From: a virus
Taxonomy: Duplodnaviria > Caudoviricetes
Virus record (IMG/VR): IMGVR_UViG_3300043468_001158
Direction: 5' to 3' (one strand)
DNA: 64,000 nucleotides
The notes under the pieces were generated by a model. The model was given only the letters and a program-made list of their open reading frames with translations, was not told the origin of the DNA and ran no database searches. The position numbers and the translations under genes are program-made. Positions 41,472 through 64,000 of the stretch are shown one piece after another. How positions within the stretch are numbered: position 1 is the stretch's first letter; each line of letters opens with the position of its first letter.

Positions 41472-42203
41472 ATGTATTCGTTTTATCTAATTTATAGAAC
41501 TATATGTATAGTGAATAATAAATTTTATATAGGAAAACATAAAACAAACAATCTTAACGATAATTATTTAGGTAGTGGAAAACTTCTAAAAACCGCTATT
41601 GCCAAATATGGCAGAAATAATTTTGTTAGAGAAATATTACATTTTTGTTCCTCAGAAGAAGAAATGAACGAGTTAGAGACAAAAATTGTAAATGCCGAAA
41701 TGATTATGCGAGAAGATACTTATAATATTGCTATTGGCGGACAAGGAGGGTTAGGTGTAGCTCAATGTATTTCTGACGAAAAACGAAAAGAAATGACTGA
41801 TAGAATGGCACAAACCAAATCGGGAAGGACAAAAGAAGATTTTGAGTATCTACAGCGAATTAGTAATAAACTGCTTGGTAAAAATAAATTTAATACAGAA
41901 CATCATAGAAAAAATTCAGAAAGAATGTCTAAAGAAAATAAAGAAAACTCTGAAAGATGTAGAACACATTCTGAATTTATGAAAATAAAAATGAAAGGAG
42001 CAAATAATCATAATGCAAAAAATTGGATATTAGAAAATCCAATCGGAGAAGTGATTGAGACCGGAGACATAACGCTCTTTTGTCAAGAACTTGATTTAGC
42101 ATATTCAATTTTTAGATATAAAGCTCAAGTTCAAAACACTCTTCCTGTAACTAGGGGTAAAAGTAAAGGATGGAAAGTCATTTCATCATATTCAAAAACG
42201 TAA
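41472..42203 (+). mobile_element. Free-standing GIY-YIG (Seg-like) homing endonuclease
   Basis: YLIYRTICIVNNKFYIGKH...YLGSG...E...YN GIY-YIG motifs plus NUMOD-like C-terminal region; TAAATA at 41436-41441. Confidence 0.88.
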
Positions 42204-43450: not shown

Positions 43451-44743
43451 ATGGAACTTTTTGAAAATTGGTCACAAACCAAAGAAGCTTTACTAACTGA
43501 ATTACCTGCTCATAAAAAAGCCTACATGGGCCGTATTATGGAAAACACTAAACAACAGTTGATGGAAACTGCTGCTGCTGGTGTTAACGCTGCAGGCGCA
43601 ATTGGTAATTTCCAAAAAATCATTATCCCAATGATTCGTCGTATTATCCCTGGCACTATCGCTACTGAACTTGTTGGTATCCAACCAATGTCAGGTCCAG
43701 TATCTTTAGCGTACTCATTACGTTTCCTTTTCTCTCAAAATACTGATGTTCCAACTGTTAGTTATGTTACTAATCCAGATGGAACTATTTCTGCTGTGAA
43801 CTTAACACCAGGTGCTGGTCCTGAAGACATCATCGGTGCTGGTTTAGTTGACCCAGTAACTGGTACTTATTTAGGTGCTACTGAAGTATTTGGTAACAAC
43901 AGCAAAACTAAACGTTGGTATTCTGGTGCAATCAATGCTGGTGGTATGGCTCTTGGTACTGCAGCTCTTACAGCTGACTTCGAAGCGTACGGCGGACGTC
44001 AATTGCAATTAGAAGTATTGAAACAAACTGTTACTGCTGGCTCACGTAAATTACAAGCTAAATGGACAGTTGAAGCGATGCAAGACCTTTCAGCACAACA
44101 TGGTTTAGACCTTGAAGCTGAAATCACTGCAGCTCTTTCTGCTGAAATCGTTTCTGAAATCGACAACGAAATCATCAATGACTTGATTGCTCTTGCTGGT
44201 ACTGTTGAAACTTTCGACATGAATGGTACTTTCACTGGTGTTCCTAACTATGTTGGTGACCGTCATGCAGTTCTTGGTACTTTAATCAATAAAGTTGCAA
44301 ACGAGATTGCTCGCAAAACTCGTCGTAATGCAGCTAACTGGATTGTTGTATCTCCAATCGTTGCTTCAGTATTACAATCTGCTGCAAAATCAGTATTTGC
44401 TCCAGCAGTAAGCGGTTCATTCGAAGGTCCTAACAACACCAAATTGATTGGTACTTTAAACGGTTCTATCAAAGTTTACACTTACATCTATCATGACACT
44501 GGTTCTGAGCCAATCTTGGTTGGTTACAAAGGTGGAAACGGCGAAATGGATACCGGTTATTTCTACTGCCCATACGTTCCACTTATGAGCTCAAACGTAT
44601 TGTTTGACCCTGCAACTTACAACCCACAAGTAAGCTTGATGACAAGATATGGAAAAGCTACATTTACCGATACTGCTACTTCGTTGGGCAATAGTGCCGA
44701 TTACTATGGTCGTGTGAATGTTGCAAATCTTTCATTCATCTAA
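43451..44743 (+). CDS. gp23: Major capsid protein gp23
   Basis: VGIQPMSGPVSLAYSLR, SRKLQAKWTVEAMQDLSAQHGLDLEAE, EIDNEII, FYCPYVPL, SLMTRYG. Confidence 0.97.
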   Translation: MELFENWSQTKEALLTELPAHKKAYMGRIMENTKQQLMETAAAGVNAAGAIGNFQKIIIPMIRRIIPGTIATELVGIQPMSGPVSLAYSLRFLFSQNTDVPTVSYVTNPDGTISAVNLTPGAGPEDIIGAGLVDPVTGTYLGATEVFGNNSKTKRWYSGAINAGGMALGTAALTADFEAYGGRQLQLEVLKQTVTAGSRKLQAKWTVEAMQDLSAQHGLDLEAEITAALSAEIVSEIDNEIINDLIALAGTVETFDMNGTFTGVPNYVGDRHAVLGTLINKVANEIARKTRRNAANWIVVSPIVASVLQSAAKSVFAPAVSGSFEGPNNTKLIGTLNGSIKVYTYIYHDTGSEPILVGYKGGNGEMDTGYFYCPYVPLMSSNVLFDPATYNPQVSLMTRYGKATFTDTATSLGNSADYYGRVNVANLSFI

Positions 44744-44798: not shown

Positions 44799-46346
44799 TT
44801 ACCCATCTGACAGTTCTAATTGATATTTTAGTTGTCCTGCATCCGAAATAGAATACCATCCTAGTGAGTCCCAATAATCTTTAGTGATAATATCATGTCC
44901 TAAATGAGCAGGTCTTCTAAATCCCCATCGATGTTTTCTTTCAGTAAAGTTAGTAAAGAATACGCCAATCTTAGTTTCACCTACTAATGAAAAGCCCAAG
45001 GTTTGATATACATTTTTATTATAATCAGTCCATCGCAAATCTGCCCAAGAAATAATTTTCTTTGTTGGATTATTTTTTATAAAACATGATAATAATTTCC
45101 CTGCACCACCAATAATCTGATAATCACTATGAGTTGCATAACGTAATAACTCCCACGTATTACCATCATCAATTTGGTTCATCATTATTCGAGGTCTGCA
45201 AAATGTCATTACTGCTACTAAATCAATACCAGTGAATAATCCAATTTGCACTTTAGATTTTGCTGAACCTTGAATATGATATTGATTTAGAAATAACGTA
45301 GCTTCATTTGATGAAATAATTTTAGCTTGTAATTTACGTGCAAAAAGTTTCGTTGAAACATTACAACCAATAATGTTGATGATTTTATTTTTTACTAAAT
45401 CTTTTTTTGACAACCATTCATCTTCAAAAATTTGAACTAATCTAATTCCACGTTCTTTACATAATTCATATTTTTTCCGATGCTTATACCTATCATAACC
45501 AGCTTTACTTGAATGCCAATATAAGCCATGATATTCGATAGCAATGTTTTTGCTTGGAATATAAATGTCAAGTTCTAAGTTATTCGGAAGAATACTTTTA
45601 TTATGTCTAACAATTTCAACATATTGAGACACAAAGTCAGCCAATTCTACTTCAGCTTTACTTTCTCCTTTTAGAGGAGGGAAGCAAGTATGACATAAAG
45701 TATTAGCAAATTGATGCTTTTTCAAAGTAACTAATGCAACATTCGAAACGTTATTACATGTACTGCATTTGATACTAAATCTAAAATTGCCTGATATGAA
45801 ATGTTCACTATTTTCTAAAACTTCACCCCATTCAATTTGAAGATTAGTTTCTAGTTTTTTAGCGGTTTCTTCTTTCCTTCGCTTAGCAATTTTTTCTAGG
45901 TGAGGTATTTGAAACTCCATTCTTTCATCAGAAAGTGGAGGTTTTGGATTGTTATGATAATATTCATTTAGCGCAATACTCAGTTTTTCACGATATTCAT
46001 CTGAACGTTCATGAGTTCTACCAGTATTGAAATGCTCTCCATTTTCTGCAGCTTCTTTAGATCGTTGTCCAATACCATTCTTTTGTTTATCAGAAACCCT
46101 ACCTTCTTGCCAAAGTTTTTTTGTAGTTTCAACAAGTTTAGCTTTAGTTTTAGTTTCTTCTGAATGACCTTTACCTTTTAGGGGATGATTGTCACCAGAC
46201 TTTTTTGCTTTTAGCTCTGGTGAATATCCAAATGGAGCATCATTTCCAAACTGTTCAAAGTATTCTTCTTTAGAAAAACCATGAGCTTTTAGATGTTGCT
46301 TATCAATTTTAGATAGCTTTCGGTTACATATTGGACATTCAATCAT
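44799..46346 (-). mobile_element. Hef-like homing endonuclease (Zn finger, NUMOD-like region, PD-(D/E)XK/DUF559-like domain)
   Basis: CPIC...HLKAHG; ELDIYIPSKNIAIEYHGLYWHS...IRLVQIFEDEW; C-terminal WELLRYAT...IISWADLRW. Confidence 0.8.
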
Positions 46347-55991: not shown

Positions 55992-56246
55992 ATGAAATCT
56001 GAAATAAACTTTGAAAAGTGCGATGTCAATTGGTTGGATACATCTCAATTGACATCGTCTCATGTCATTACAATTGGTGTTGATATTGGAACTATGTCAA
56101 AAGCCAAAGAGCATATGGAAGCTTATGCAGCAGCGGCAAAGAAAGCTTTTGAACCAGCACGAATTGTGGTCTATCCAAAAGGTTTAGCAGAGTTCAATGT
56201 TGAAGAAGTTGTAGCTTCTCTAGCGACATCTGAAACAGAACAGTAA
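55992..56246 (+). CDS. Hypothetical protein (84 aa)
   Basis: ORF in the plus-strand operon. Confidence 0.6.
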   Translation: MKSEINFEKCDVNWLDTSQLTSSHVITIGVDIGTMSKAKEHMEAYAAAAKKAFEPARIVVYPKGLAEFNVEEVVASLATSETEQ

Positions 56247-56249
56247 GTA

Positions 56250-56432
56250 ATGACTGCTACGTCAGAGCAATTAGGTATCGATGATGCTCAACGTCATCGA
56301 TATCAACTTCTGATAAAAGCAGAAATACTAACAGAGAATGGTGAATATCATCCAAGATGGTTTTCACAAGAAACAATAGAACGAGATAAACAACATAGAA
56401 ATCAAACTCAGAAGAGGAATAACGAAAGATGA
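56250..56432 (+). CDS. Hypothetical protein (60 aa)
   Basis: ATGA overlap with the next gene. Confidence 0.55.
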   Translation: MTATSEQLGIDDAQRHRYQLLIKAEILTENGEYHPRWFSQETIERDKQHRNQTQKRNNER

Positions 56433-56875
56433 CTTCATTACTACAACAAATCAAAGACCGTTCGCTTGAAGCTCGCAAGGCTAAAGCGCCTGAAGCAGTG
56501 TATCTAACAACTTTGTTAGGCGAAGCTTCTCGTCCTGGTAAAGACGATGGCAGTCGTGAAAGTACTGACGAAGAAGTACTGAAAGTTTTGACTAAGTTCA
56601 AGACCGGTGCTCTTGAAATGCTTGATGTCTTCGAACGAGTTGAAGATGTTAATAAGATTATCGTGACCGAACGCGAACTTGCAATCTTGGACAGTTATCT
56701 GCCAAAGCAAATGTCAAACATCGAGCTTGAAAACATCATTGCCAAGTTTGTCGTTGATGCAGATAAGACACCATCAATTGGTATGATTATGGCATACTTG
56801 AAGTCTAACTATGCTGGTCAGTATGATGGTAAAGCTGCTTCAGTATTTGCTAAGTCTGCGATTGAGGAACTGTAG
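56429..56875 (+). CDS. GatB/YqeY-domain protein
   Basis: LEARKAK...LTTLLGE...DEEV...ELAILDSYLPKQMS...GMIMAYLK...YDGK. Confidence 0.85.
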   Translation: MTSLLQQIKDRSLEARKAKAPEAVYLTTLLGEASRPGKDDGSRESTDEEVLKVLTKFKTGALEMLDVFERVEDVNKIIVTERELAILDSYLPKQMSNIELENIIAKFVVDADKTPSIGMIMAYLKSNYAGQYDGKAASVFAKSAIEEL

Positions 56876-56887
56876 GAAATGTAGGAA

Positions 56888-57088
56888 ATGAAAATCAATC
56901 TCCAATTATTTCTTATCGTACTTCTGTTGTTTAGCATTATGCCATTGCTAAAATACTTAGACATTTCTAGACAAACCTCAGAAAATGTGATACAATGCAT
57001 TGGAGATTACAGCTTTTCGCAAGACTTTCTGGATTTTTGGCGACCATATGAAGACGAAAATCCAGAACATATCAGATGTAATGACTGA
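56888..57088 (+). CDS. Small membrane-anchored protein (66 aa)
   Basis: N-terminal TM LFLIVLLLFSIMPLL; stop codon overlaps the 5-prime end of the tRNA-like RNA. Confidence 0.55.
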   Translation: MKINLQLFLIVLLLFSIMPLLKYLDISRQTSENVIQCIGDYSFSQDFLDFWRPYEDENPEHIRCND

Positions 57089-57207
57089 ATAGCTTAATCG
57101 GCAGAGCATCTCAGCTAGGGCAGGGGGTTAGGTTCGATTCCTAACAGATAAGTGGCGCCTGTAAGTCCGCATGAGGTAGGTAGTGGGTTCGAACCCCCTT
57201 TCAGTCA
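57083..57207 (+). ncRNA. tRNA-like RNA whose anticodon loop is replaced by a 58-nt domain with a second T-arm
   Basis: GACTGAA/TTCAGTC acceptor stem; D-arm GCTT-AATCGGCA-GAGC; stem TCTCA/TGAGG; T-loop TTCGAAC; insert contains GTTAGG-TTCGATT-CCTAAC; no encoded CCA. Confidence 0.8.
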
Positions 57208-57240
57208 ATCCTTTCATAACAACACACGAGGAATAGAGTA

Positions 57241-57417
57241 ATGATTACTGCTAACATACAAAGCAATCCTGATGCGCTAATAGCTGACTTAGTTGAGCTT
57301 GCACGCACTTATGGATGGTTTGGCGACTATTTGGAAGTCCGTGATTTCGTAGAATGGTCAATTGAACATTTGGGTAAAGATGCAGATAACTATGAGCTTG
57401 AACCTTATGAAGACTAA
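57241..57417 (+). CDS. Small acidic hypothetical protein (58 aa); absent from the ORF track
   Basis: GAGGA RBS; MITANIQSNPDALIADLVELARTYGWFGDY... Confidence 0.6.
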   Translation: MITANIQSNPDALIADLVELARTYGWFGDYLEVRDFVEWSIEHLGKDADNYELEPYED

Positions 57418-57418
57418 T

Positions 57419-57820
57419 ATGGAAGAAGAACGTTTTAGGTTCTCAACAATCGATGGTACTTTGAATGACAAGTGGTTGATGTTTGATTTGCCACGTGAAA
57501 AGACAAATCTTCCAATGGTATCACTTGCTCTAACTAAGAACTGTGTATCAGACGACAATGGTCCAAGAATTCGTATTGCTATTCATGATGGCGACATTGT
57601 TGATACTTCATCTGAACTAACATCATTCTTCTTTGGACATTCATATGTCAAAGGGCCATTTGATGTTATCATGACAAAACCACGATTTGAACTGGTTGAA
57701 GGTTTTATCAAGCTCAATCGTCAAGTTCTTTTGGATTTTTGGAATTGCAATATCAATGGTGCTCAATTGTTAGATGACATTGTTCCGTATAGTCATAGAT
57801 TGTATAGCAGCTGGCTATAA
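57419..57820 (+). CDS. Hypothetical protein (133 aa)
   Basis: Start re-called to MEEERFRF, 1 nt after the upstream stop. Confidence 0.6.
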   Translation: MEEERFRFSTIDGTLNDKWLMFDLPREKTNLPMVSLALTKNCVSDDNGPRIRIAIHDGDIVDTSSELTSFFFGHSYVKGPFDVIMTKPRFELVEGFIKLNRQVLLDFWNCNINGAQLLDDIVPYSHRLYSSWL

Positions 57821-57851
57821 ATACCTTTTAGATAATAAAGGAGAGTATATA

Positions 57852-58199
57852 ATGAAACGTTATCAATTAGGAGCATTGTTAGGAATAATCGGTTTTATGA
57901 CGAGCATGTCTATTCATGCTTATGATGGCGATTACTATTATGATACTCAACCGCCACGATATTATCAACAACCGTCTTCTGGTAGTATCACAATCCCACT
58001 TGGGAATACTTACAATTCTCCAAGCATTACATTTTCAGTTCCAACCTATGTTAGACCTCCTGTAGTGTATGAGCATCACTATTATGCACCTCCAGTAGTG
58101 TATCATCGTCCATACTACTATAGAGGATATACTTCTTACCGTAGCGGAGAACATAGACATCACCACGGTCATTATAATAGTCATCATTATGATGACTAA
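57852..58199 (+). CDS. Secreted Tyr/Pro/His-rich low-complexity protein
   Basis: Start re-called to MKRYQLGALLGIIGFMTSMSIHA (signal-like) after AAGGAG; TATAAATA at 57816-57823. Confidence 0.7.
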   Translation: MKRYQLGALLGIIGFMTSMSIHAYDGDYYYDTQPPRYYQQPSSGSITIPLGNTYNSPSITFSVPTYVRPPVVYEHHYYAPPVVYHRPYYYRGYTSYRSGEHRHHHGHYNSHHYDD

Positions 58200-58271
58200 G
58201 AAAGCATATATCATTGCTCTTCATGTCATTGTATTTGGATTGATTTTTTATATGCATTTGCTAATTAACCG

Positions 58272-58300
58272 TTTACATTCTGAAAAAACTAGTATACAAT
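58272..58300 (+). promoter_or_regulatory. Early promoter TTTACA-N17-TACAAT
   Basis: Preceded by AACCG like sister promoters. Confidence 0.75.
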
Positions 58301-58377
58301 GTCCTTCAGAATCAAGTGAAACTCGTGACATCCAAGTCACTACTTATCAACTATAACTACGAAGAGAGAGAACTATC

Positions 58378-58569
58378 ATGATGAAACGTATTCTTATTAG
58401 CCTTGCAATTATTTTCGCACTCATTGTTGGTCTTTATGTTTTCAATTACGAAAAAGCCATGAAAGACATGGAATTTAGACGTACTTGTGACAGCCAAAAT
58501 GGCTTCATCATTGCAGATGAAGTTGGTGGTAAATACTGCTTACGTCGCAATAATGAAATAAGTCAATAA
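58378..58569 (+). CDS. Small membrane-anchored protein (63 aa)
   Basis: N-terminal TM segment; periplasmic Cys pair. Confidence 0.65.
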   Translation: MMKRILISLAIIFALIVGLYVFNYEKAMKDMEFRRTCDSQNGFIIADEVGGKYCLRRNNEISQ

Positions 58570-58576
58570 CCTTTTC

Positions 58577-58653
58577 AGGCCGGAAGCTTAAGCGGTATAA
58601 GCAACTCCCTCATAAGGTGAAGACAGCGGGTTCGAATCCCTCCCGGCCTACCA
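58577..58653 (+). tRNA. tRNA with CAT anticodon (Met or Ile2)
   Basis: AGGCCGG/CCGGCCT acceptor stem, GCTT/AAGC D-stem, loop CTCATAA, T-loop TTCGAAT, encoded ACCA; anticodon stem has two mismatches. Confidence 0.8.
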
Positions 58654-58713
58654 TTTTCATACTATCTCCATAAATAGTGGTATAACCAAATACACTTATA
58701 TGGAGATAACGAT

Positions 58714-59007
58714 ATGAACACTCAAAAACCTGACACTACAGAAGAAATCACAAAACCTAATCAACTTGATACATTGGGTATTCTTGATGATGGCAAGATT
58801 GATATGCAGGACGCGAAGCGCATCATTCAAAGCAAGACAATCTGGGTAAATTTGTTAGCTTTTGTAGCATTCTTTTTACAGAGCAAGTACGGTTATGTCA
58901 TGGATGAAGGTATGCAAGCTCAAATCTTGACTATCATCAATATTGGTCTTCGTTATGTCACTTCTACTCCAATCGTATGGGGCGGACCAGAAAAAGCTGC
59001 AAAGTAG
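58714..59007 (+). CDS. Holin-like small membrane protein
   Basis: QSKTIWVNLLAFVAFF...ILTIINIGLRYVTSTPI (2 TM); CATAAATAG late promoter (TAAATA at 58671-58676); GGAG RBS. Confidence 0.6.
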   Translation: MNTQKPDTTEEITKPNQLDTLGILDDGKIDMQDAKRIIQSKTIWVNLLAFVAFFLQSKYGYVMDEGMQAQILTIINIGLRYVTSTPIVWGGPEKAAK

Positions 59008-59009
59008 TG

Positions 59010-59273
59010 ATGAACCGATACAATCAAGGCTTCTGGAAGTTTGGTCCTATGGAGCAATGCAAGGATGGCATTTGGGGTAAGTATGCAGACTTTTTGCGAG
59101 TTCTTCAATATGCAGTAAAAAGCAAGAACGAACAAATTGAAGAACTCACTGAAGAATTACGTATAGCTCAAATGAAAATCAAGAAGCTTGAATCTCGCTT
59201 ACAGTTTGTCGATAATGAACATCGTTCTTTTATTGACAAAATAATCAAACATCTTTTTCCAATGGCACAATAA
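59010..59273 (+). CDS. Hypothetical coiled-coil protein
   Basis: Start re-called to ATG 59010, just after the holin-like stop. Confidence 0.55.
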   Translation: MNRYNQGFWKFGPMEQCKDGIWGKYADFLRVLQYAVKSKNEQIEELTEELRIAQMKIKKLESRLQFVDNEHRSFIDKIIKHLFPMAQ

Positions 59274-59276
59274 CAT

Positions 59277-59453
59277 ATGAAAGCTCTACTTATCTTAATC
59301 ACAATCACGATGGTTCTTACTGCGTGTGGAACAACAAGTGTCTATCAAGATGATGGTTCAAAACAACCGTCTGGCTATCATCGCAATGAATACAGTCATC
59401 GTCATGGCAATGCACCACCTGTTCCTGACCAAAACCAACTTCCGCAAAAATAA
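59277..59453 (+). CDS. Small lipoprotein (58 aa); absent from the ORF track
   Basis: MKALLILITITMVLTAC lipobox. Confidence 0.65.
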   Translation: MKALLILITITMVLTACGTTSVYQDDGSKQPSGYHRNEYSHRHGNAPPVPDQNQLPQK

Positions 59454-59456
59454 CCG

Positions 59457-59485
59457 TTTACTTTAGTCCTTCTGCTTGTTATAAT
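59457..59485 (+). promoter_or_regulatory. Early promoter TTTACT-N17-TATAAT
   Basis: AACCG before and AGAC after; followed by a 10-bp hairpin. Confidence 0.75.
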
Positions 59486-59520
59486 AGACTCATAATCTTA
59501 AAACCTTATGAGTCTTTTAT

Positions 59521-59814
59521 ATGGCAGTTCAAATTCGTGGTACTCAACAACAGATAGTTTCTATCAATGTGTCTGAATCAGACCTGATTAGCGCAGTTCT
59601 TTCTTTAGTTGAAGACATCTATGTTCCACTTGAGTCCATTGAGGCTATCAATCCCGCTGGTTATATTGTTCAGACTGAATATGATATGCATAATCATGAC
59701 CCACGAAGTGTAGTCACTGATGTACTTGCAACTGAACAAGACAGGTATTATGTAGACTTTCGCGAAAAACTTCTTACACTAAGATATCATCTACGTAAGA
59801 AATCTGGTATATAA
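59521..59814 (+). CDS. Hypothetical protein (97 aa)
   Basis: First ORF after the promoter. Confidence 0.65.
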   Translation: MAVQIRGTQQQIVSINVSESDLISAVLSLVEDIYVPLESIEAINPAGYIVQTEYDMHNHDPRSVVTDVLATEQDRYYVDFREKLLTLRYHLRKKSGI

Positions 59815-59863
59815 TACAACTTTATCGTAATACTTATAAACATATCACAAGAGGTAAATCAAA

Positions 59864-60628
59864 ATGACAAAACTCCACGAAATCCTAGCTGTTGAAAAAA
59901 CTCGTAACACTGCAGTTGCAAAATTACTGGATGACACTAGCAACAAATTCCGTAAAGACCAGTTTTTTGCAGGTCATATCAAAACATTGAAAATGTTGGT
60001 TGATTCTCCGGAAAATGCTGCAATTGAAGAAGCTGCTCGTGACGAAAAAGCTTTGCCAACTACAGTCCCTGAAACTCTTGAATATGTGTTTGACTTCTGG
60101 GCAAAAGCCGAAGACATCACTTTTGCAAAAAATCGTACTAACCAAATTGCCAATGCTGACCTGTTGTTCCGTGGACAAGTATTAGTACCTAATGTACCGG
60201 TTGATGAATTGCTTGGTCTTGAAACTCGTCTGCAAACATTGCGTAATGTGATGGATACGGTTCCAACTTTGGATGCGTCTAAAGAATGGAAAGTAACTGA
60301 CAATGGTCGTAAAGGCGAGTTCGTAACGACAGGTGAAGAAGTCACCAGCAAAACTGAAAAGACAATGACTGCTGTGGTCTTGTATGAAGCAACTGACAAA
60401 CATCCAGCTCAAATTGAAAAAGTGACTGCCGATAAAGTTGTTGGAACATTCAAACGTCGTTTGATTTCTGGTGCTGCTACTTCCAAGCAAAAAGCAGATG
60501 CAATTGCAATTCTTGATGAATTGTTGGTTGAAACCAAACAAGCAAGACAGCGTGCAAACTCTGTTGAAGTCATCAACGAAAAAATCGGTAACACGATTGC
60601 AAACTTGATTTTGGATGTCTTCAAATAA
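59864..60628 (+). CDS. Conserved 254-aa helical protein (recalled as DUF7873-like), upstream of the tRNA-mimic RNA
   Basis: GAGGT RBS; MTKLHEILAVEK, NVPVDELLGLETRL, EATDKHPAQIEKV, FKRRLISGA and ARQRANSVEV match a family I recall from phages and actinobacteria (unverified). Confidence 0.65.
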   Translation: MTKLHEILAVEKTRNTAVAKLLDDTSNKFRKDQFFAGHIKTLKMLVDSPENAAIEEAARDEKALPTTVPETLEYVFDFWAKAEDITFAKNRTNQIANADLLFRGQVLVPNVPVDELLGLETRLQTLRNVMDTVPTLDASKEWKVTDNGRKGEFVTTGEEVTSKTEKTMTAVVLYEATDKHPAQIEKVTADKVVGTFKRRLISGAATSKQKADAIAILDELLVETKQARQRANSVEVINEKIGNTIANLILDVFK

Positions 60629-60632
60629 ACCG

Positions 60633-60661
60633 TTTACATTGACTAAAAAGCATGATAGAAT
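60633..60661 (+). promoter_or_regulatory. Early promoter TTTACA-N17-TAGAAT
   Basis: AACCG-prefixed; positioned to transcribe the leader hairpin, the 119-aa ORF and the downstream RNA. Confidence 0.75.
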
Positions 60662-60671
60662 AGATACAAAT

Positions 60672-60742
60672 AAAAGTTCAACCGGAGCTAATGGATTATC
60701 CCGTTAAGATACAAACCCATAAGCGTTTTTAGTTGTACTTTT
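60672..60742 (+). ncRNA. Structured leader hairpin sharing motifs with the 61690-61758 insertion
   Basis: AAAAGTTCAAC/GTTGTACTTTT outer stem; GCTAATGG/CCATAAGC inner stem; exact 13-mer AGCGTTTTTAGTT also at 61699-61711. Confidence 0.6.
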
Positions 60743-60776
60743 ACCAAATTGTGAAATAAAGTGGAGAGAAAATTCG

Positions 60777-61136
60777 ATGTACAGACCTGAAGGTATAGGC
60801 CAAGTTATTTGGAAGTTTGCAAAATCTTCTAAAGAAGTTACAATGGAAAATCTAAAAGAAGTCATATCAGAATATTCTGGTATTGTACCTGATATGCTTT
60901 CTGATTATTCTGTGTATGAAGTAGTATTTGAAACTGTTGGTCAAGCAATAGAAGCTGGAGTAATCAGAGCTCATATGTTTAGGGATTTTGCAAATGCAAT
61001 TGTTCCATCTCCATTTTTTAGAAATTATCAAGCAATAGAAGTTCTAACTGAATTGACTATGATTCAGTGTATGATAAATATGATTAGATATGTCCAGGTC
61101 ATAGACGGTGATACCATTTTGATTGACCTGGATTAG
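60777..61136 (+). CDS. Hypothetical protein (119 aa) between the RNA elements
   Basis: GGAG RBS; open frame. Confidence 0.65.
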   Translation: MYRPEGIGQVIWKFAKSSKEVTMENLKEVISEYSGIVPDMLSDYSVYEVVFETVGQAIEAGVIRAHMFRDFANAIVPSPFFRNYQAIEVLTELTMIQCMINMIRYVQVIDGDTILIDLD

Positions 61137-61180
61137 AAAACAAACGAGCCAAACTTATCTTTATTATTGTAGTAAATCGT

Positions 61181-61304
61181 TTTAGAATTGATGTGGTGGT
61201 TCGAGTCCATCCTTCCCCACAAAGTGTTTTATCAACATAGAATATTTTGTGGGGAAGTAGAAGAACAGGCATATTCTGCTCTTATGTGAGTATTCAGTTC
61301 TATT
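61181..61304 (+). ncRNA. Circularly permuted tRNA-like module 1
   Basis: T-arm GGTGG-TTCGAGT-CCATC (61195-61211); CTTCCCC (61212-61218) pairs with GGGGAAG (61251-61257) across a capping hairpin; TAGAATTGA pairs with TCAGTTCTA. Confidence 0.7.
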
Positions 61305-61393
61305 ACAAAGTTATCTTCTTCGTATCGCTCAGCATACGTGACTAGGAAGGCATCTTAACAATTGCAAATAGGCACAATCTTATCATTCTATTA

Positions 61394-61502
61394 TGATAAA
61401 CCGAAAGTCGTGGGTTCGAATCCCATTTCCACCTCCACTTGGTATTGAATAGCTCGTCAGTATCAAGTGGGGTGGAGTAACTCAGTGGTTAGAGTGTCGG
61501 TC
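61394..61502 (+). ncRNA. Circularly permuted tRNA-like module 2 (rejoined halves read as a tRNA with GAU anticodon)
   Basis: 3-prime half TGATAA-ACCGA-AAGTC-GTGGG-TTCGAAT-CCCAT-TTCCACC-T-CCA precedes 5-prime half GGTGGAG-TA-ACTC-AGTGGTTA-GAGT-G-TCGGT-C. Confidence 0.88.
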
Positions 61503-61657
61503 AAATATAACTCAAACTCATCGTCAAACATGTGGGTTATTTGCAAAAAGATGTAAGACAAAGGTTCTTGATGACTGGTGGTTAGACAGGTATGTTCTAA
61601 TCGCTAGTCATTCTATAAAAAAGTATTAGAATAAATAGTATTTTTCTATAGAATAAT

Positions 61658-61793
61658 GTGAATGATAGCTCAGTTGGTAGAGCAGCCGCCATCAAAATAG
61701 CGTTTTTAGTTTTTGTTCAATTCACGTTGAACCGTTGAAAATGATTATCCAAATCCAAGCAGCATGTCATAGGTTCGAATCCTATTCATTCAC
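61658..61793 (+). ncRNA. tRNA-like module 3 with a 69-nt insertion in the anticodon loop
   Basis: (G)TGAATGA/TCATTCA(C) acceptor stem; GCTC-AGTTGGTA-GAGC D-arm; GCCGC/GCAGC stem; ATAGG-TTCGAAT-CCTAT T-arm; 3-prime end TTCA rather than CCA; TAAATA at 61632-61637. Confidence 0.82.
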
Positions 61794-61807
61794 TTCAAAT
61801 TATACGT

Positions 61808-61893
61808 GGCATCGTGGGGGAATTAGGTATACCCAGCAGACTTAAAATCTGCCAGCTTCGGCTATCCCGGTTCAAGTCCGGGCGATGCTACCA
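61808..61893 (+). tRNA. tRNA-Leu(TAA)
   Basis: GGCATCG/CGATGCT acceptor stem, GCAGA-CTTAAAA-TCTGC anticodon arm, long variable arm, CCCGG-TTCAAGT-CCGGG T-arm, ACCA. Confidence 0.95.
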
Positions 61894-61917
61894 ATAAATG
61901 CGAATAAACTAATGAAT

Positions 61918-62397
61918 TTATTCAATACTAACAGCTGAAGAACCGGCTTTTTTCATGTTTTCTAACTCCATTTTTAATCGTTCTATTTCTAAAGCGTAAA
62001 GTTGTGTGCAATCAATTCTCGCAGGTTCTTCTCCAATAGGAATAACAATTCGAGCATAAACTCCAATGTCATTACCGGCGATATTATTAGAAGATTCTTG
62101 ATTAGAATAATAATTATTGATAACTTGTGGGTCTGAACTATTAGATGCATTAGTATTTTTTGTTCCGGTAATACCAAAATCTAATGTAGGGCCAATATGA
62201 GTTCCTTGATTACATGTTGTTCCATCACGTCCTCTAACAGAATCTCCACCAATTGAGTTTTGAGGAGTCATTGGCATCATTGGTGAGCCATAACCATTAT
62301 TTGAAACTATAAGTAATAGTATTATTGAGAAACTTTTGTGGTAACTATAGAGCATGTTCTTAACCTCATTGATTGAGAATCTTTTAGAACCGCACAA
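61918..62397 (-). CDS. Secreted protein with C-terminal coiled coil, third gene of the pilin-like cassette
   Basis: Signal-like IILLLIVSNNGYG (true start probably MLYSYHK); DSVRGRDGTTC...LDFGITG...IGVYARIVIPI...RIDCTQLYALEIERLKMEL. Confidence 0.65.
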   Translation of the reverse strand: MCGSKRFSINEVKNMLYSYHKSFSIILLLIVSNNGYGSPMMPMTPQNSIGGDSVRGRDGTTCNQGTHIGPTLDFGITGTKNTNASNSSDPQVINNYYSNQESSNNIAGNDIGVYARIVIPIGEEPARIDCTQLYALEIERLKMELENMKKAGSSAVSIE

Positions 62398-62687
62398 AGA
62401 TAATATTTTGAATTATCTTTTATGATAATATCAATTGGAATAATTCGTTCTTGCTCTTTACCTAAAACAAATTCAGAAATAATTTTGTCTTCATTTTTTT
62501 GTAAATCAATTACTTTTACAAATTCTATAGAAGCAGTTTCAAAGTGACCATAAATTTTAAATTGAATCGGAGTTTTAGTACCAATAACTCCGGTTGTAGT
62601 TATTTTGTTTGGAAAAACACTTACTGCAAATACTGATTGGATTGATATAAAAAAGGTAATAAATAAGTTTATTAGATGCTGTTTCAT
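62322..62687 (-). CDS. Small PapD-like/Ig-fold chaperone-like secreted protein
   Basis: Signal peptide then VSVFP; beta-strand pattern with FVLGKEQERII and a C-terminal Cys pair. Confidence 0.5.
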   Translation of the reverse strand: MKQHLINLFITFFISIQSVFAVSVFPNKITTTGVIGTKTPIQFKIYGHFETASIEFVKVIDLQKNEDKIISEFVLGKEQERIIPIDIIIKDNSKYYLCAVLKDSQSMRLRTCSIVTTKVSQ

Positions 62688-62786
62688 AATATGTCATTTA
62701 TAATTATAAATCCAGTAATAAGTTGAGAGAAGGACCTGGATTAAATCTTTTCGGGTTATAAATTCCCTATCCCCCAACTTATTATT

Positions 62787-63299
62787 TTACATTGTGCAAG
62801 ATACTGGTATTTTTAATTGATATGTTCCAGCAGGGAAAGCAGAACCATCTTGACGCGTAACATTAGCATTTACGGCAATGTTGTATGTTCCGCCATCAAA
62901 GAAGAATGTATTAGACGCAGCATCTGGTCCAAATTGACTTACAGCAACGCCAAATAAATCAGAACCATTACCATTTGCTGAAGTAGTTACAATCGCGTCA
63001 GATAAAACTCCATTAGGACCAATAATAATTGGCGCTCCTAATGGTAAAGAATATCCATTCACATTAGCACGTAAGCTTACTGAAGCTGGAGAACCACCTG
63101 AATTTTCAGAAGATAATTGAGTTTGGTCTGCTGAAGTAGTAATTGTTCCATCGACAAAAGTCATAAGATTACAAGATGGAGCTACAGTTCCATTAAATTT
63201 TAAGTCTCCTGATGTTGGTCCGACTGCTGCAGGTAAAATAGCTGCAGAAGCTGAAAAACTAATTAAAAGACTGAGTGGTAAAAGTAATATTCCTTTCAT
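62787..63299 (-). CDS. Fimbrial (pilin-like) subunit
   Basis: Signal peptide ending FSASA; LKFNGTVAPSC; C-terminal FPAGTYQLKIPVSC; TATAAATA on the minus strand at 63357-63364 and 63391-63398. Confidence 0.65.
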   Translation of the reverse strand: MKGILLLPLSLLISFSASAAILPAAVGPTSGDLKFNGTVAPSCNLMTFVDGTITTSADQTQLSSENSGGSPASVSLRANVNGYSLPLGAPIIIGPNGVLSDAIVTTSANGNGSDLFGVAVSQFGPDAASNTFFFDGGTYNIAVNANVTRQDGSAFPAGTYQLKIPVSCTM

Positions 63300-63440
63300 T
63301 TTTATTTCCTTTTAAGTTGTTGATAATAAACTCATCATAATAATCTCAGCAAATGCTATTTATATAAATTTGCATTAGGTCATTTCAGGTTATTTATATA
63401 AGTTGGAAGTGACCAGTCAAATTATAATTTGTATAAACTA

Positions 63441-64000
63441 TCAAAAGGAATAAACAAAGTTGGTCGCAATCATCCACCAATTTTCATACGCACCTGGGTC
63501 TGCATTATAGTTTTCAGGTAATGCCCATCTTCCACCTTGTATCTTATGTGCTTCAAGTCCAATCATCCAATTATCACGATGATAGTTCAAACCAAAATTG
63601 ATGTCACCAGTATGAATTGTCGTATAAGGTGGTGTTGGTAAATTTTTTAGTTGCTGAGAGTGGTAAAAATTATAATTTGCATATCCAGATACATGTTCTG
63701 TTATTTCATAACGAGCACTAAACGAATATCCACCTGACCATTGACCCGGTGAATCCCATTCATTGAAGAAGGTTTTGACACGAATATCTTCAGCAGACAA
63801 AGTCAAATCTCGCCACGTGTATTCCAAACTATTCACAAAGATGTTCAACTTCTGGTCTTGATTGACATCATTTGGAAAGATAATTGCCATAGTTTGACTA
63901 GTCTTATTTCCTAAATTGATACGTGCCCATGAGGATTTGAAAACCAGGTCATCATAAGTATATTTCAATGTGGCTAATCGGTAATCCCCAAAACTTGTAT
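63441..64000 (-). CDS. Outer-membrane beta-barrel (porin-like) protein, partial (start lies beyond the window)
   Basis: Frame stays open from 64000 through the track start at 63968; alternating aromatic strands; C-terminal MIATNFVYSF ending in Phe. Confidence 0.7.
   Translation of the reverse strand, partial: TSFGDYRLATLKYTYDDLVFKSSWARINLGNKTSQTMAIIFPNDVNQDQKLNIFVNSLEYTWRDLTLSAEDIRVKTFFNEWDSPGQWSGGYSFSARYEITEHVSGYANYNFYHSQQLKNLPTPPYTTIHTGDINFGLNYHRDNWMIGLEAHKIQGGRWALPENYNADPGAYENWWMIATNFVYSF

What the first reader, a model, noticed from the sequence alone, without database searches (positions are those of the whole stretch)
61658..61793. tRNA body with a structured 69-nt anticodon-loop insertion too short for a group I intron
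Seen: near-canonical D- and T-arms and a possible G-1:C73 pair (His-like), but no CCA. The loop 61690-61758 holds a GTTCAA/TTGAAC hairpin, AGCGTTTTTAGTT and ATTATCC. No removal that I can see restores a U33-containing 7-nt loop (3-prime side reads AATCCAA). A late TAAATA sits ~20 nt upstream. Inference: a third mimic domain, or a tRNA with a new kind of protein-spliced intron.
Basis: partly seen in the sequence, partly recalled or inferred. Interest (0 to 1): 0.7.

Follow-up and report, generated by a model that had tools for sequence, protein, structure and literature searches.

The report
tRNA-shaped Y RNA with Ro60 handle
This phage gene makes a tRNA-shaped RNA whose anticodon loop is replaced by a conserved 55-69-base hairpin. 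The same hairpin-in-tRNA design recurs in about 30 large phages that nearly always encode the RNA-binding ring protein Ro60, so it is most likely a new, unpermuted form of Y RNA, not a tRNA with an intron.

Summary
Window 61659-61793 (+) has a perfect acceptor stem, D arm and T arm (Rfam tRNA 45.3 bits), and a 69-nt insert (61690-61758) where the anticodon loop should be. No excision restores a U33 loop.

The insert is not unique. A covariance model of the insert alone finds about 50 copies in about 30 uncultured large-phage contigs, always inside tRNA-shaped genes, with compensatory changes in both helices. It fits no group I intron, no BHB intron, no known ribozyme, and neither the T5 stable RNAs nor the Lak-phage introns.

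The link to Ro60 is the key result:
- All 6 near-complete genomes with the insert encode a Ro60/TROVE protein, against 4 of 16 controls (p = 0.003).
- Starting from 40 phage Ro60 genes, 16 of 16 insert matches within 3 kb lie on the Ro60 strand, several within 200-800 nt.
- Those copies lack an anticodon, as the window's copy does.

Best reading (about 0.6): a Y-RNA-like partner of phage Ro60. It has the YrlA architecture, but the RNA ends sit at the acceptor instead of in the handle.

Rival: a new small tRNA intron. In other family members, removing the insert restores perfect anticodon arms.

This scan noted similar arms in giant-virus tRNAs before. I found no description of it in the papers I searched.

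The parts
61658..61665 (+). Possible G-1 (61658) and the acceptor 5' strand (61659-61665)
   Evidence: Pairs 7/7 with 61786-61792.
61668..61683 (+). D arm (GCTC / AGTTGGTA / GAGC)
   Evidence: Rfam tRNA alignment.
61685..61689 (+). 5' strand of the anticodon-stem analogue (GCCGC). It pairs with 61759-61763 (GCAGC), with a C.A mismatch at the 29:41 position.
   Evidence: The same stem and the same mismatch recur in L209, L155:2333, L111 and L003:9994.
61690..61698 (+). 5' junction strand of the handle (CAUCAAAAU). The family consensus here is N-AAAAC.
   Evidence: Alignments A2 and A4.
61699..61709 (+). Handle helix P1, 5' strand. It pairs with 61735-61745.
   Evidence: MFE fold. In the family, 8 of 10 P1 pairs show changes on both sides.
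61715..61732 (+). Handle helix P2 hairpin (GUUCAAU / UCAC loop / GUUGAAC), flanked by the conserved UUUG...AACCG internal loop
61735..61745 (+). Handle helix P1, 3' strand (UUGAAAAUGAU)
61746..61758 (+). 3' junction strand (UAUCC + AAAUCCAA). UAUC is invariant in the family. AUCCAA is duplicated in this copy.
61694..61749 (+). Match to the handle-only covariance model R2
   Evidence: 44.1 bits, E 1.5e-6. It is the only R2 match in the window.
61759..61793 (+). Anticodon-stem 3' strand, variable loop (61764-61768), T arm (61769-61785), acceptor 3' strand (61786-61792) and discriminator C (61793). No CCA is encoded.
61808..61893 (+). Ordinary tRNA-Leu(UAA) 15 nt downstream, followed by a terminator-like hairpin at 61933-61958. 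Probably the same transcription unit.
   Evidence: Metatranscriptome contigs cover 61650-62000.
60672..60734 (+). Permuted, partial copy of the handle motifs in the leader of the 119-aa ORF. The order is P2 3' half-CCG-P1 3' strand-UAUCC, then 20 nt, then the P1 5' strand.
   Evidence: It is not matched by R2, and its fold is no better than shuffles (z = -0.42). Most likely a recombination relic.

Best explanation
The gene encodes a stable, tRNA-shaped non-coding RNA of the Y-RNA class. A complete tRNA top half (acceptor, D arm, T arm) gives it tRNA-like processing and stability. The anticodon loop is replaced by a conserved two-helix 'handle', which I infer to be the docking site for the phage's own Ro60/TROVE ring protein. 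The handle consists of:
- an unpaired AAAAC-like 5' strand;
- helix P1, with a conserved A-U / U.G / C-G / G.U / U-A core;
- a UUUG / AACCG internal loop;
- hairpin P2;
- an unpaired UAUC 3' strand.

The architecture is that of YrlA (a tRNA-like domain with a protein-binding stem leaving from the anticodon-stem position). The chain, however, is not permuted: the RNA ends lie at the acceptor and the handle is closed by a loop.

By analogy with known Ro60-Y RNA particles, the RNA would gate Ro60 or tether it to another factor (PNPase in Deinococcus, Salmonella and Thermus phage phiLo) during infection.

Shown here: the structure, the family, the covariation, and the co-occurrence and adjacency with Ro60 genes.
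Inferred: that Ro60 binds the handle, and what the particle does.
For: 1. **tRNA body.** Rfam tRNA 45.3 bits with a 68-nt gap in the anticodon loop. The fold has z = -2.3.

2. **The handle is a family.** Model R2, built from inserts only, finds it only inside tRNA-shaped genes. It matches 19 copies in the first locus set and the window at 44.1 bits. Each genome carries 1-4 copies.

3. **RNA-level selection.** On 25 distinct members, 91.8% of cells pair, against 67.5% after shuffling. 27 of 34 pairs change on both sides, including 8 of 10 in P1 and 3 of 4 in P2. Slid controls pair at 33-54%.

4. **Co-occurrence with Ro60/TROVE (PF05731).** All 6 handle-positive contigs that are at least 84% complete encode it, as do 7 of 14 fragments. 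Among handle-negative large phage contigs the rate is 4 of 16 near-complete. Fisher p = 0.0028.

5. **Adjacency, tested from the Ro60 side.**
   - In 40 phage TROVE loci with 3-kb flanks, R2 gives 16 matches in 10 loci, all 16 on the TROVE strand (p = 1.5e-5).
   - Several lie 200-800 nt from the gene (L458, L476, L469, L471, L461).
   - In the window's relative L003, three copies sit 630-1300 nt upstream of the Ro60 ORF.
   - This is the genomic signature by which Y RNAs were defined (PMC4201824; phiLo Yrl1/2, PMC12135203).

6. **The Ro60-adjacent copies are anticodon-less tRNA shapes like the window's**. In L486:1480-1576 the handle replaces the whole anticodon arm.

7. **Local context.** The gene follows two permuted, YrlA-like tRNA mimics in the window and in L002.

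8. **Expression.** Contigs from four metatranscriptome runs cover 61650-62000. In one of them (X5) the contig is colinear and unspliced. In the other three, 786 other letters replace 61681-61696.
Against: - No Ro60 gene lies in this 64-kb window, and the rest of the genome is not held. The link therefore rests on relatives. The closest, G001, has Ro60 about 49 kb from its copies.
- Binding is untested.
- The handle is not recognised by Rfam YrlA or Y_RNA. It lacks a clear contiguous GNCGAA / CGAA Ro60 motif. Only AAAAC...UCG and, in some members, (C/U)GAAUGG resemble the YrlA stem.
- In most genomes the copies sit in tRNA clusters 8-90 kb from Ro60.
- Seven handle-positive contigs lack TROVE. 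All are incomplete: six are estimated at 12-29% complete and one at 45%.
- About two thirds of the members keep a complete, canonical anticodon stem-loop beside the handle. A pure Y-RNA reading does not explain this.
- Two cultured Ro60-encoding jumbo phages have no R2 match.
Confidence: 0.6

Rival explanations
1. The handle is a new class of small (about 53-57 nt) tRNA intron. An unknown nuclease would cut it out, and the phage's Rnl1-type or Rnl2-type RNA ligases would rejoin the exons. The Ro60 association would then be indirect, or Ro60 would take part in processing.
For: - In 20 or more members the handle sits inside the 5' strand of the anticodon stem, after position 27, 28 or 29. Removing it restores a 5-bp stem and a 7-nt loop with U33 and R37.
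- The restored anticodons differ: GUU, GUC, GUA, UUG, CUU, UGG, UAC, UCC and CAU.
- Pair 29:41 covaries across the insert (C-G in L002:7670, G-C in L054:9492).
- L083 restores a class II tRNA-Tyr(GUA) with its long variable arm.
- Most members encode CCA.
- Rnl1 (PF09511) and Rnl2-type (PF09414) ligases are present in all 3 complete genomes tested.
- RNA-level cut-and-join does occur nearby: the 61437-to-61471 joint appears in two runs.
Against: - For the window's copy, and for all other members in which the anticodon stem is complete before the insert, no excision gives a canonical loop. These are the forms found next to Ro60.
- There is no BHB motif, and there is no EndA or RtcB in 5 contigs, 3 of them complete.
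- The implied splice sites shift by 1-2 nt relative to the conserved handle.
- No RNA contig skips the insert, and one colinear contig spans it. Contigs cannot show absence.
- The restored anticodons duplicate ordinary tRNAs in the same clusters.
- No insert-free orthologue was found.
Confidence: 0.22
2. It is a tRNA gene disabled by a small mobile DNA element, that is, a pseudogene with no RNA-level function for the insert.
For: - AUCCAA is tandemly duplicated beside the insert, and UAUC is duplicated in L101, L132 and L482.
- A permuted partial copy lies 1 kb upstream.
- L002:5506 has a decayed acceptor stem.
- A strain variant has 786 other bases in place of 61681-61696.
Against: - Compensatory changes in P1 and P2 and invariant single-stranded motifs persist across copies only about 60% identical.
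- The acceptor, D and T arms of the window copy are perfect.
- The strand-specific adjacency to Ro60 is not expected of a DNA parasite.
- There are no terminal inverted repeats and no consistent target duplications.
Confidence: 0.08
3. It is a homologue of the tRNA-like stable RNAs of phage T5 (RNA1) or T4 (species 1 and 2): a tRNA-cluster RNA of unknown, Ro60-independent function.
For: T5 RNA1 (AY543070, 30501-30644) is annotated as a 'tRNA-like stable RNA with unknown functions'. By eye it has CUGCC-GAAUAGGUUUAC...UAAAUGGUCUAUC, which resembles the handle's ends. The neighbouring window RNA at 57083-57207 was earlier linked to T5 RNA2.
Against: R2 finds nothing at RNA1 in the whole T5 genome; its only match is 15.9 bits at an unrelated site. 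R1 does not score RNA1 above ordinary tRNAs. I did not test T5 for a TROVE gene, and its stable RNAs are not annotated as Ro60-linked.
Confidence: 0.05

Closest known systems
YrlA-type Y RNAs of bacteria and phages (Rfam RF02553; Chen et al. 2014, PMC4201824; phage phiLo Yrl1/Yrl2, PMC12135203)
   Same: - A tRNA-like D/T/acceptor module joined, at the anticodon-stem position, to a conserved stem with unpaired A-rich strands.
- Genes co-occur with Ro60/TROVE, and many lie beside it on the same strand.
- They occur in large phages.
- Weak YrlA matches lie next to family members (window 61402-61499, L003:7007-7140, L486:1276-1412).
   Different: - The topology is not permuted. The 5' and 3' ends are at a true acceptor stem, often with encoded CCA, and the handle is closed by a hairpin. 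In YrlA the acceptor is capped and the ends are in the Ro60-binding stem.
- The handle sequence is not matched by the YrlA or Y_RNA models.
- It has no clear GNCGAA motif.
- Many members keep a full anticodon arm.
Protein-spliced tRNA introns of archaea (BHB introns at non-canonical positions such as 29/30)
   Same: A short insert in the anticodon stem or loop, including positions 27-30. In many members, removing it restores a normal anticodon arm.
   Different: - No bulge-helix-bulge can be drawn.
- There is no splicing endonuclease or RtcB in the phage genomes.
- The insert is conserved in sequence and structure, which BHB introns are not.
- The window copy restores no anticodon.
Group I introns in bacterial and phage tRNA genes
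   Same: They interrupt the anticodon loop of bacterial-type tRNA genes.
   Different: The insert is 51-69 nt, against 200 nt or more. It has no P3-P9 core, and no Rfam intron match at E up to 10.
'Enigmatic' tRNA introns of Lak megaphages (Devoto et al. 2019, PMC6784885)
   Same: Conserved inserts of unknown mechanism in phage tRNA genes.
   Different: The handle model finds nothing in Lak-A1. The Lak inserts were described as possibly tRNA-like themselves, and no Ro60 link was reported.
Phage T5 RNA1 / RNA2 tRNA-like stable RNAs
   Same: tRNA bodies of 125-144 nt with an expanded anticodon region, encoded inside tRNA clusters, of unknown function.
   Different: No detectable homology of the insert.

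Membership tests
tRNA (Rfam RF00005) | Cloverleaf with acceptor, D and T arms scoring above the gathering threshold | tested here: met
   45.3 bits against a cut-off of 29, but only in E-value mode. The default scan and ARAGORN miss it.
tRNA (Rfam RF00005) | 7-nt anticodon loop with U33 and a purine at 37, directly or after removal of an intron | tested here: not met
   Enumerating all excisions gives at best CA[UCA]AA or CAUCCAA, both with A33.
Group I intron in tRNA | Catalytic core (P3-P9), 200 nt or more, Rfam Intron_gpI match | tested here: not met
   The insert is 69 nt. No intron family matches at E up to 10 in 56000-64000.
Archaeal-type BHB tRNA intron | Bulge-helix-bulge at the exon-intron junctions, and a splicing endonuclease (PF01974) with an RtcB-type ligase | tested here: not met
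   No exon-intron pairing can form the central 4-bp helix (read directly from the sequence). PF01974 and PF01139 are absent from 5 handle-bearing contigs, 3 of them complete.
YrlA Y RNA (Rfam RF02553) | tRNA-like T and D arms attached to a protein-binding stem | tested here: met
YrlA Y RNA (Rfam RF02553) | Permuted order (T arm, capped acceptor, D arm) with the RNA ends in the Ro60-binding stem, and a score at or above 69 bits | tested here: not met
   The element has normal tRNA order. No YrlA match falls on 61659-61793, even at E up to 10.
YrlA Y RNA (Rfam RF02553) | GNCGAAN0-1G / CGAA motif implicated in Ro60 binding (PMC4201824, PMC12135203) | tested here: inconclusive
   Some members have (C/U)GAAUGG in the P1 3' strand. 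The window has UUGAAAAUGAU. The contiguous motif is not conserved.
Y RNAs in general (functional class) | Encoded with, and usually beside, a Ro60/TROVE gene | tested here: met
   Met for the family: 6 of 6 near-complete genomes, and 16 of 16 co-oriented matches within 3 kb of TROVE in 10 of 40 loci. Not testable for this phage, because no TROVE lies in the window and the rest of the genome is not held.
Y RNAs in general (functional class) | Physical binding to Ro60 | not testable with these tools
   Needs an EMSA, RIP or structure.
Handle-bearing tRNA-shaped RNA family defined here (models R1, R2) | Match to the insert-only model, with P1 and P2 helices and AAAAC / UUUG / AACCG / UAUC motifs | tested here: met
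   R2 44.1 bits, E 1.5e-6. R1 94 bits. The window deviates in one place: it has AGCG...UGAU, a G.A pair, where the family has AUCG...UGGU.
Phage T5 RNA1 | Detectable homology of the expanded anticodon region | tested here: not met
   No R2 match at RNA1 in the T5 genome.

The most novel reading that the evidence does not exclude
The handle marks a phage system in which genuine, chargeable tRNAs (the members that keep a full anticodon arm and CCA) are physically coupled to Ro60. Either they are decoding tRNAs carrying a Ro60-docking arm, or they are precursors whose handle is removed in a Ro60-dependent cut-and-ligate pathway using the phage Rnl1/Rnl2 ligases. The second would be the first protein-dependent tRNA splicing pathway in the bacterial world.
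Probability: 0.15. Interest if true: 0.9.

Novelty: new variant of a known kind. Interest (0 to 1): 0.64.

Why it matters
Y RNAs are the obligatory partners of Ro60, but few bacterial and phage Y RNAs are known. All described tRNA-like ones (YrlA, Yrn1) are rearranged mimics.

A family that keeps true tRNA topology, often with CCA and even an anticodon arm, and simply carries a docking handle, would show three things:
- how Y RNAs can arise from tRNA genes;
- a compact, testable candidate Ro60-binding module;
- that large phages bring their own Ro60-RNA particles, perhaps to redirect host RNA decay or tRNA-directed defence.

It also explains why tRNA finders miss these genes or misread them as intron-containing. 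If the minority reading is right, it would instead uncover a new kind of tRNA intron in phages.

Tried and rejected
- **tmRNA-like tag ORF in the insert.** An open frame after AAAA exists in several copies, but the frame shifts between members (read by hand). Rejected.
- **Known small ribozymes, riboswitches, Y_RNA.** No Rfam match at E up to 10.
- **T5 RNA1, RNA2H.** They look similar by eye, but R1 and R2 do not match them.
- **Lak-A1 megaphage introns.** No R2 match.
- **Cultured phages.** The blastn search of INPHARED with the window region matched only the neighbouring tRNA-Leu, and the search with member L101 found nothing. Phosso and Atu_ph07 (both Ro60-positive) have no R2 match.
- **Cellular genomes.** 80 of at least 120 pattern matches were tested. 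None passes R2.
- **Leader copy at 60672-60734.** Not matched by R2, and its fold is not better than shuffles.
- **Strain variants.** The exact-word search of IMG/VR and the one of JGI metagenomes found nothing.
- **Insert-free orthologues.** A search of all held loci found none.
- **DUF7873 as the handle's partner.** It is present in only 1 of 5 handle-bearing contigs. Rejected.
- **RNA contigs.** No contig skips 61690-61758. Contigs drop rare forms, so this says nothing about splicing.
- **First motif scan (AGCGTTTTTAGTT...GATTATCC).** It hit only a coding region by chance.
- **Pattern AATGRTTATC...T-loop.** It mostly returned ordinary tRNAs whose D loop reads AATGGTTATC.

Full report
**1. 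The observation**

Window 61659-61793 (+) reads as a tRNA body.
- The acceptor stem pairs 7/7 (61659-61665 with 61786-61792).
- The D arm (61668-61683) and T arm (61769-61785) are canonical.
- A 5-position stem (61685-61689 with 61759-61763, one C.A mismatch) encloses 69 nt (61690-61758) instead of a 7-nt loop.

Rfam's tRNA model gives 45.3 bits in E-value mode. ARAGORN and the default Rfam scan miss the gene.

I enumerated every excision that would leave a 17-nt anticodon arm. None gives U33, partly because AUCCAA is tandemly duplicated. No CCA is encoded. The upstream 'late' box is only AATAAATA.

The window comes from a T4-like large phage: it has gp23, gp20, the prohead protease and baseplate proteins. 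It has no close cultured relative.

**2. The insert is a conserved structured RNA family**

The two closest contigs, found through the neighbouring DUF7873 gene, carry the same kind of gene. L002 has one at the syntenic position after the same pair of permuted tRNA mimics. L003 has three in tandem.

Motif scans of IMG/VR gave more members.

I built two covariance models:
- R1: tRNA body plus insert.
- R2: insert only, from 25 sequences, 53 positions.

R2 matches only inside tRNA-shaped genes. It gives 19 matches in the first million bases searched, and scores the window at 44.1 bits, E 1.5e-6. Further copies brought the total to about 50, in about 30 contigs, with 1-4 copies per genome.

The consensus, starting from the tRNA side, is:
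- unpaired N-AAAAC;
- helix P1, about 10 bp, with a conserved AUCGUU / AAUGGU core containing U.G and G.U pairs;
- an internal loop, UUUG on one strand and AACCG on the other;
- hairpin P2, often capped by a GNRA loop;
- unpaired UAUC.

On 25 distinct sequences:
- 91.8% of cells pair, against 67.5% after shuffling and 33-54% when partners are slid;
- 8 of 10 P1 pairs and 3 of 4 P2 pairs change on both sides;
- the acceptor stems differ freely between members.

The window copy is a somewhat divergent member. It has AGCG...UGAU, a G.A pair, in place of AUCG...UGGU.

**3. What it is not**
- No Rfam intron, ribozyme, riboswitch or Y_RNA model matches.
- No BHB motif can be drawn.
- The archaeal splicing endonuclease and RtcB are absent from five carrier contigs, three of them complete genomes.
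- The T5 'tRNA-like stable RNA' RNA1 looks similar by eye but is not matched by R1 or R2.
- Lak-A1, whose 'enigmatic' tRNA introns are the only phage precedent I found in the literature (PMC6784885), has no R2 match.
- None of 80 pattern-matching loci from bacterial and archaeal genomes passes R2.

**4. Two kinds of member**

In about two thirds of the members, the handle interrupts the 5' strand of the anticodon stem, after position 27, 28 or 29. A complete, canonical anticodon stem-loop follows it.

Joining the flanks restores 5-bp stems and U33/R37 loops with different anticodons. Pair 29:41 covaries across the insert. One member is a class II tRNA-Tyr(GUA) with its long variable arm.

This is the evidence for an intron, and I keep that reading as the main rival.

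The window's kind is different. Its relatives are L209, L155:2333, L087, L111, L080, L057/L059, L158:5816, L003:9994, L390, L482, L483, L486 and L487. In these, the stem is complete before the handle and no anticodon can be recovered.

The restored anticodons of the first kind duplicate ordinary tRNAs in the same clusters.

**5. The Ro60 link**

Earlier notes of this scan on giant-virus tRNAs suggested that similar arms dock Ro60. I tested that idea here in two independent ways.

*Forward test.* PF05731 (TROVE) is present in all six handle-positive contigs that are at least 84% complete, and in 7 of 14 fragments. Among handle-negative large phage contigs it is present in 4 of 16 near-complete. 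Fisher p = 0.0028. The protein is 32-43% identical to the annotated 'Ro-like RNA binding protein' of 366 cultured phages.

*Reverse test.* Starting from 40 IMG/VR loci that encode this Ro60, R2 finds 16 matches within 3 kb of the gene, in 10 loci. All 16 lie on the Ro60 strand (p = 1.5e-5).
- Several lie 200-800 nt from the gene.
- In L003 the three copies lie 630-1300 nt upstream of the Ro60 ORF.
- The weak matches in distant phages fall in 97-134-nt tRNA-shaped genes (Rfam tRNA 40-53 bits) of the anticodon-less kind.

Genes for small structured RNAs beside and co-oriented with Ro60 are exactly how bacterial and phage Y RNAs were found (PMC4201824; PMC12135203).

DUF7873, the neighbour in the window, does not track the handle: it is in 1 of 5 contigs.

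**6. Reading**

The RNA has the architecture of YrlA, a tRNA-like module with a protein-binding stem leaving from the anticodon-stem position. The chain break is moved, however. Here the ends are at the acceptor and the stem is closed by a loop. In YrlA the acceptor is capped and the ends are in the stem (one search shows the YrlA consensus).

The strand leaving the tRNA domain reads AAAAC-AUCG here and AAAAC-UUGUCG in YrlA. That is a resemblance, not a test. The YrlA model does not match the handle.

I therefore place it as a new, unpermuted variant of tRNA-like Y RNA, with confidence about 0.6. The binding itself and the downstream function (gating or tethering Ro60, for example to PNPase) are inferred.

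**7. Expression and local oddities**

Four freshwater metatranscriptome runs from two studies hold the locus as contigs.
- One contig (X5) is colinear over 61650-62000.
- No contig skips the insert, but contigs cannot show absence.
- In three runs, contigs carry 786 other letters in place of 61681-61696. This is unexplained.
- All contigs diverge from the window upstream of 61650.
- Contigs from two runs join 61437 to 61471. This removes the capping linker of the upstream permuted mimic, so RNA cut-and-join does occur in this system.
- Rnl1-type ligase is encoded by 4 of 5 carrier contigs, and so is Rnl2-type ligase.

**8. Limits**

No Ro60 gene lies in the window, and the rest of the genome is not held. 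No cultured carrier was found. My motif-seeded searches favour conserved copies, so the family size is a lower bound and the control set is small.

I found no description of this RNA in the papers I could search. This scan has noted comparable arms in giant-virus tRNAs before, on other DNA.

Noticed in passing
window 61437-61471: Metatranscriptome contigs from runs X2 and X4 (depth 160-194) join 61437 directly to 61471. This removes the 33-nt linker that caps the acceptor-like stem of the permuted tRNA mimic, and fuses ...CCUCCA to GGUGGAG... It is an RNA-level cut-and-join or circular junction.
   Followed up: partly
window 61563: Contigs in runs X1 and X2 end at 61563 and run straight into Illumina adapter sequence. 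This suggests an abundant, defined RNA end of the Y-like RNA there. No run covers 61587-61633.
   Followed up: no
window 61650-61697: In runs X1, X2 and X4, long contigs match 61650-61680, then carry 786 other letters, then resume at 61697. In all four runs the sequence upstream of 61650 differs from the window. This could be a strain variant, a paralogous tRNA 5' end or an inserted gene. The letters could not be retrieved.
   Followed up: partly
window 60672-60734: The leader of the 119-aa ORF holds the handle's motifs in permuted order (GTTCAACCG...AATGGATTATCC, 20 nt, AGCGTTTTTAGTT). The 20-nt spacer, together with the end of the UAUCC motif, reads CCGUUAAGAU, like a decayed Asn-type anticodon loop. 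Probably a relic of recombination between handle-bearing tRNA genes.
   Followed up: partly
window 61520-61553; L002:7395-7435; L003:7120-7165: Just 3' of the permuted tRNA-like domain, the Y-like RNAs carry (A)CAUCGU followed by (G/U)GGUU(A/G)U. This is reminiscent of the handle's AUCGUU / AUGGUUAU core, so the two RNA types may share one protein partner. R2 does not match these sites.
   Followed up: no
window 57083-57207: A second tRNA body with a 58-nt insert that contains its own T-arm-like hairpin (Rfam tRNA 35.3 bits). It is unrelated to the handle family (no R2 match).
   Followed up: no
L003:9700-9815: Between the handle-bearing genes and Ro60 lies another CCA-ending RNA. It has a tRNA acceptor and T arm but a long irregular helix in place of the D and anticodon arms. 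It is a further candidate Ro60 partner.
   Followed up: no
L057:925-1053, L059:4315-4444, L072:10999-11128, L101:1028-1156: These members have one extra nucleotide between the T stem and the acceptor 3' strand. In L072 this allows a 6-bp T stem, for 13 stacked pairs instead of 12, as in tRNA-Sec-like geometries.
   Followed up: no
family-wide: Among members with a restorable anticodon, the queuosine-family anticodons are over-represented. GUU (Asn) occurs 4 times, GUC (Asp) once, GUA (Tyr) twice and GUG (His) once, out of about 20.
   Followed up: no
L178:8982-9055: ARAGORN calls the 3' 74 nt of a handle-bearing gene (part of the handle plus the anticodon arm, T arm and acceptor 3' strand) as a free-standing tRNA-Asn(GTT). 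Annotation pipelines may therefore mis-call these genes.
   Followed up: no
window 41472-42203 and 44799-46346: A GIY-YIG SegE-like endonuclease gene and a NUMOD3-containing, nuclease-like gene flank the major capsid gene (43451-44743). They are free-standing homing-endonuclease candidates.
   Followed up: no
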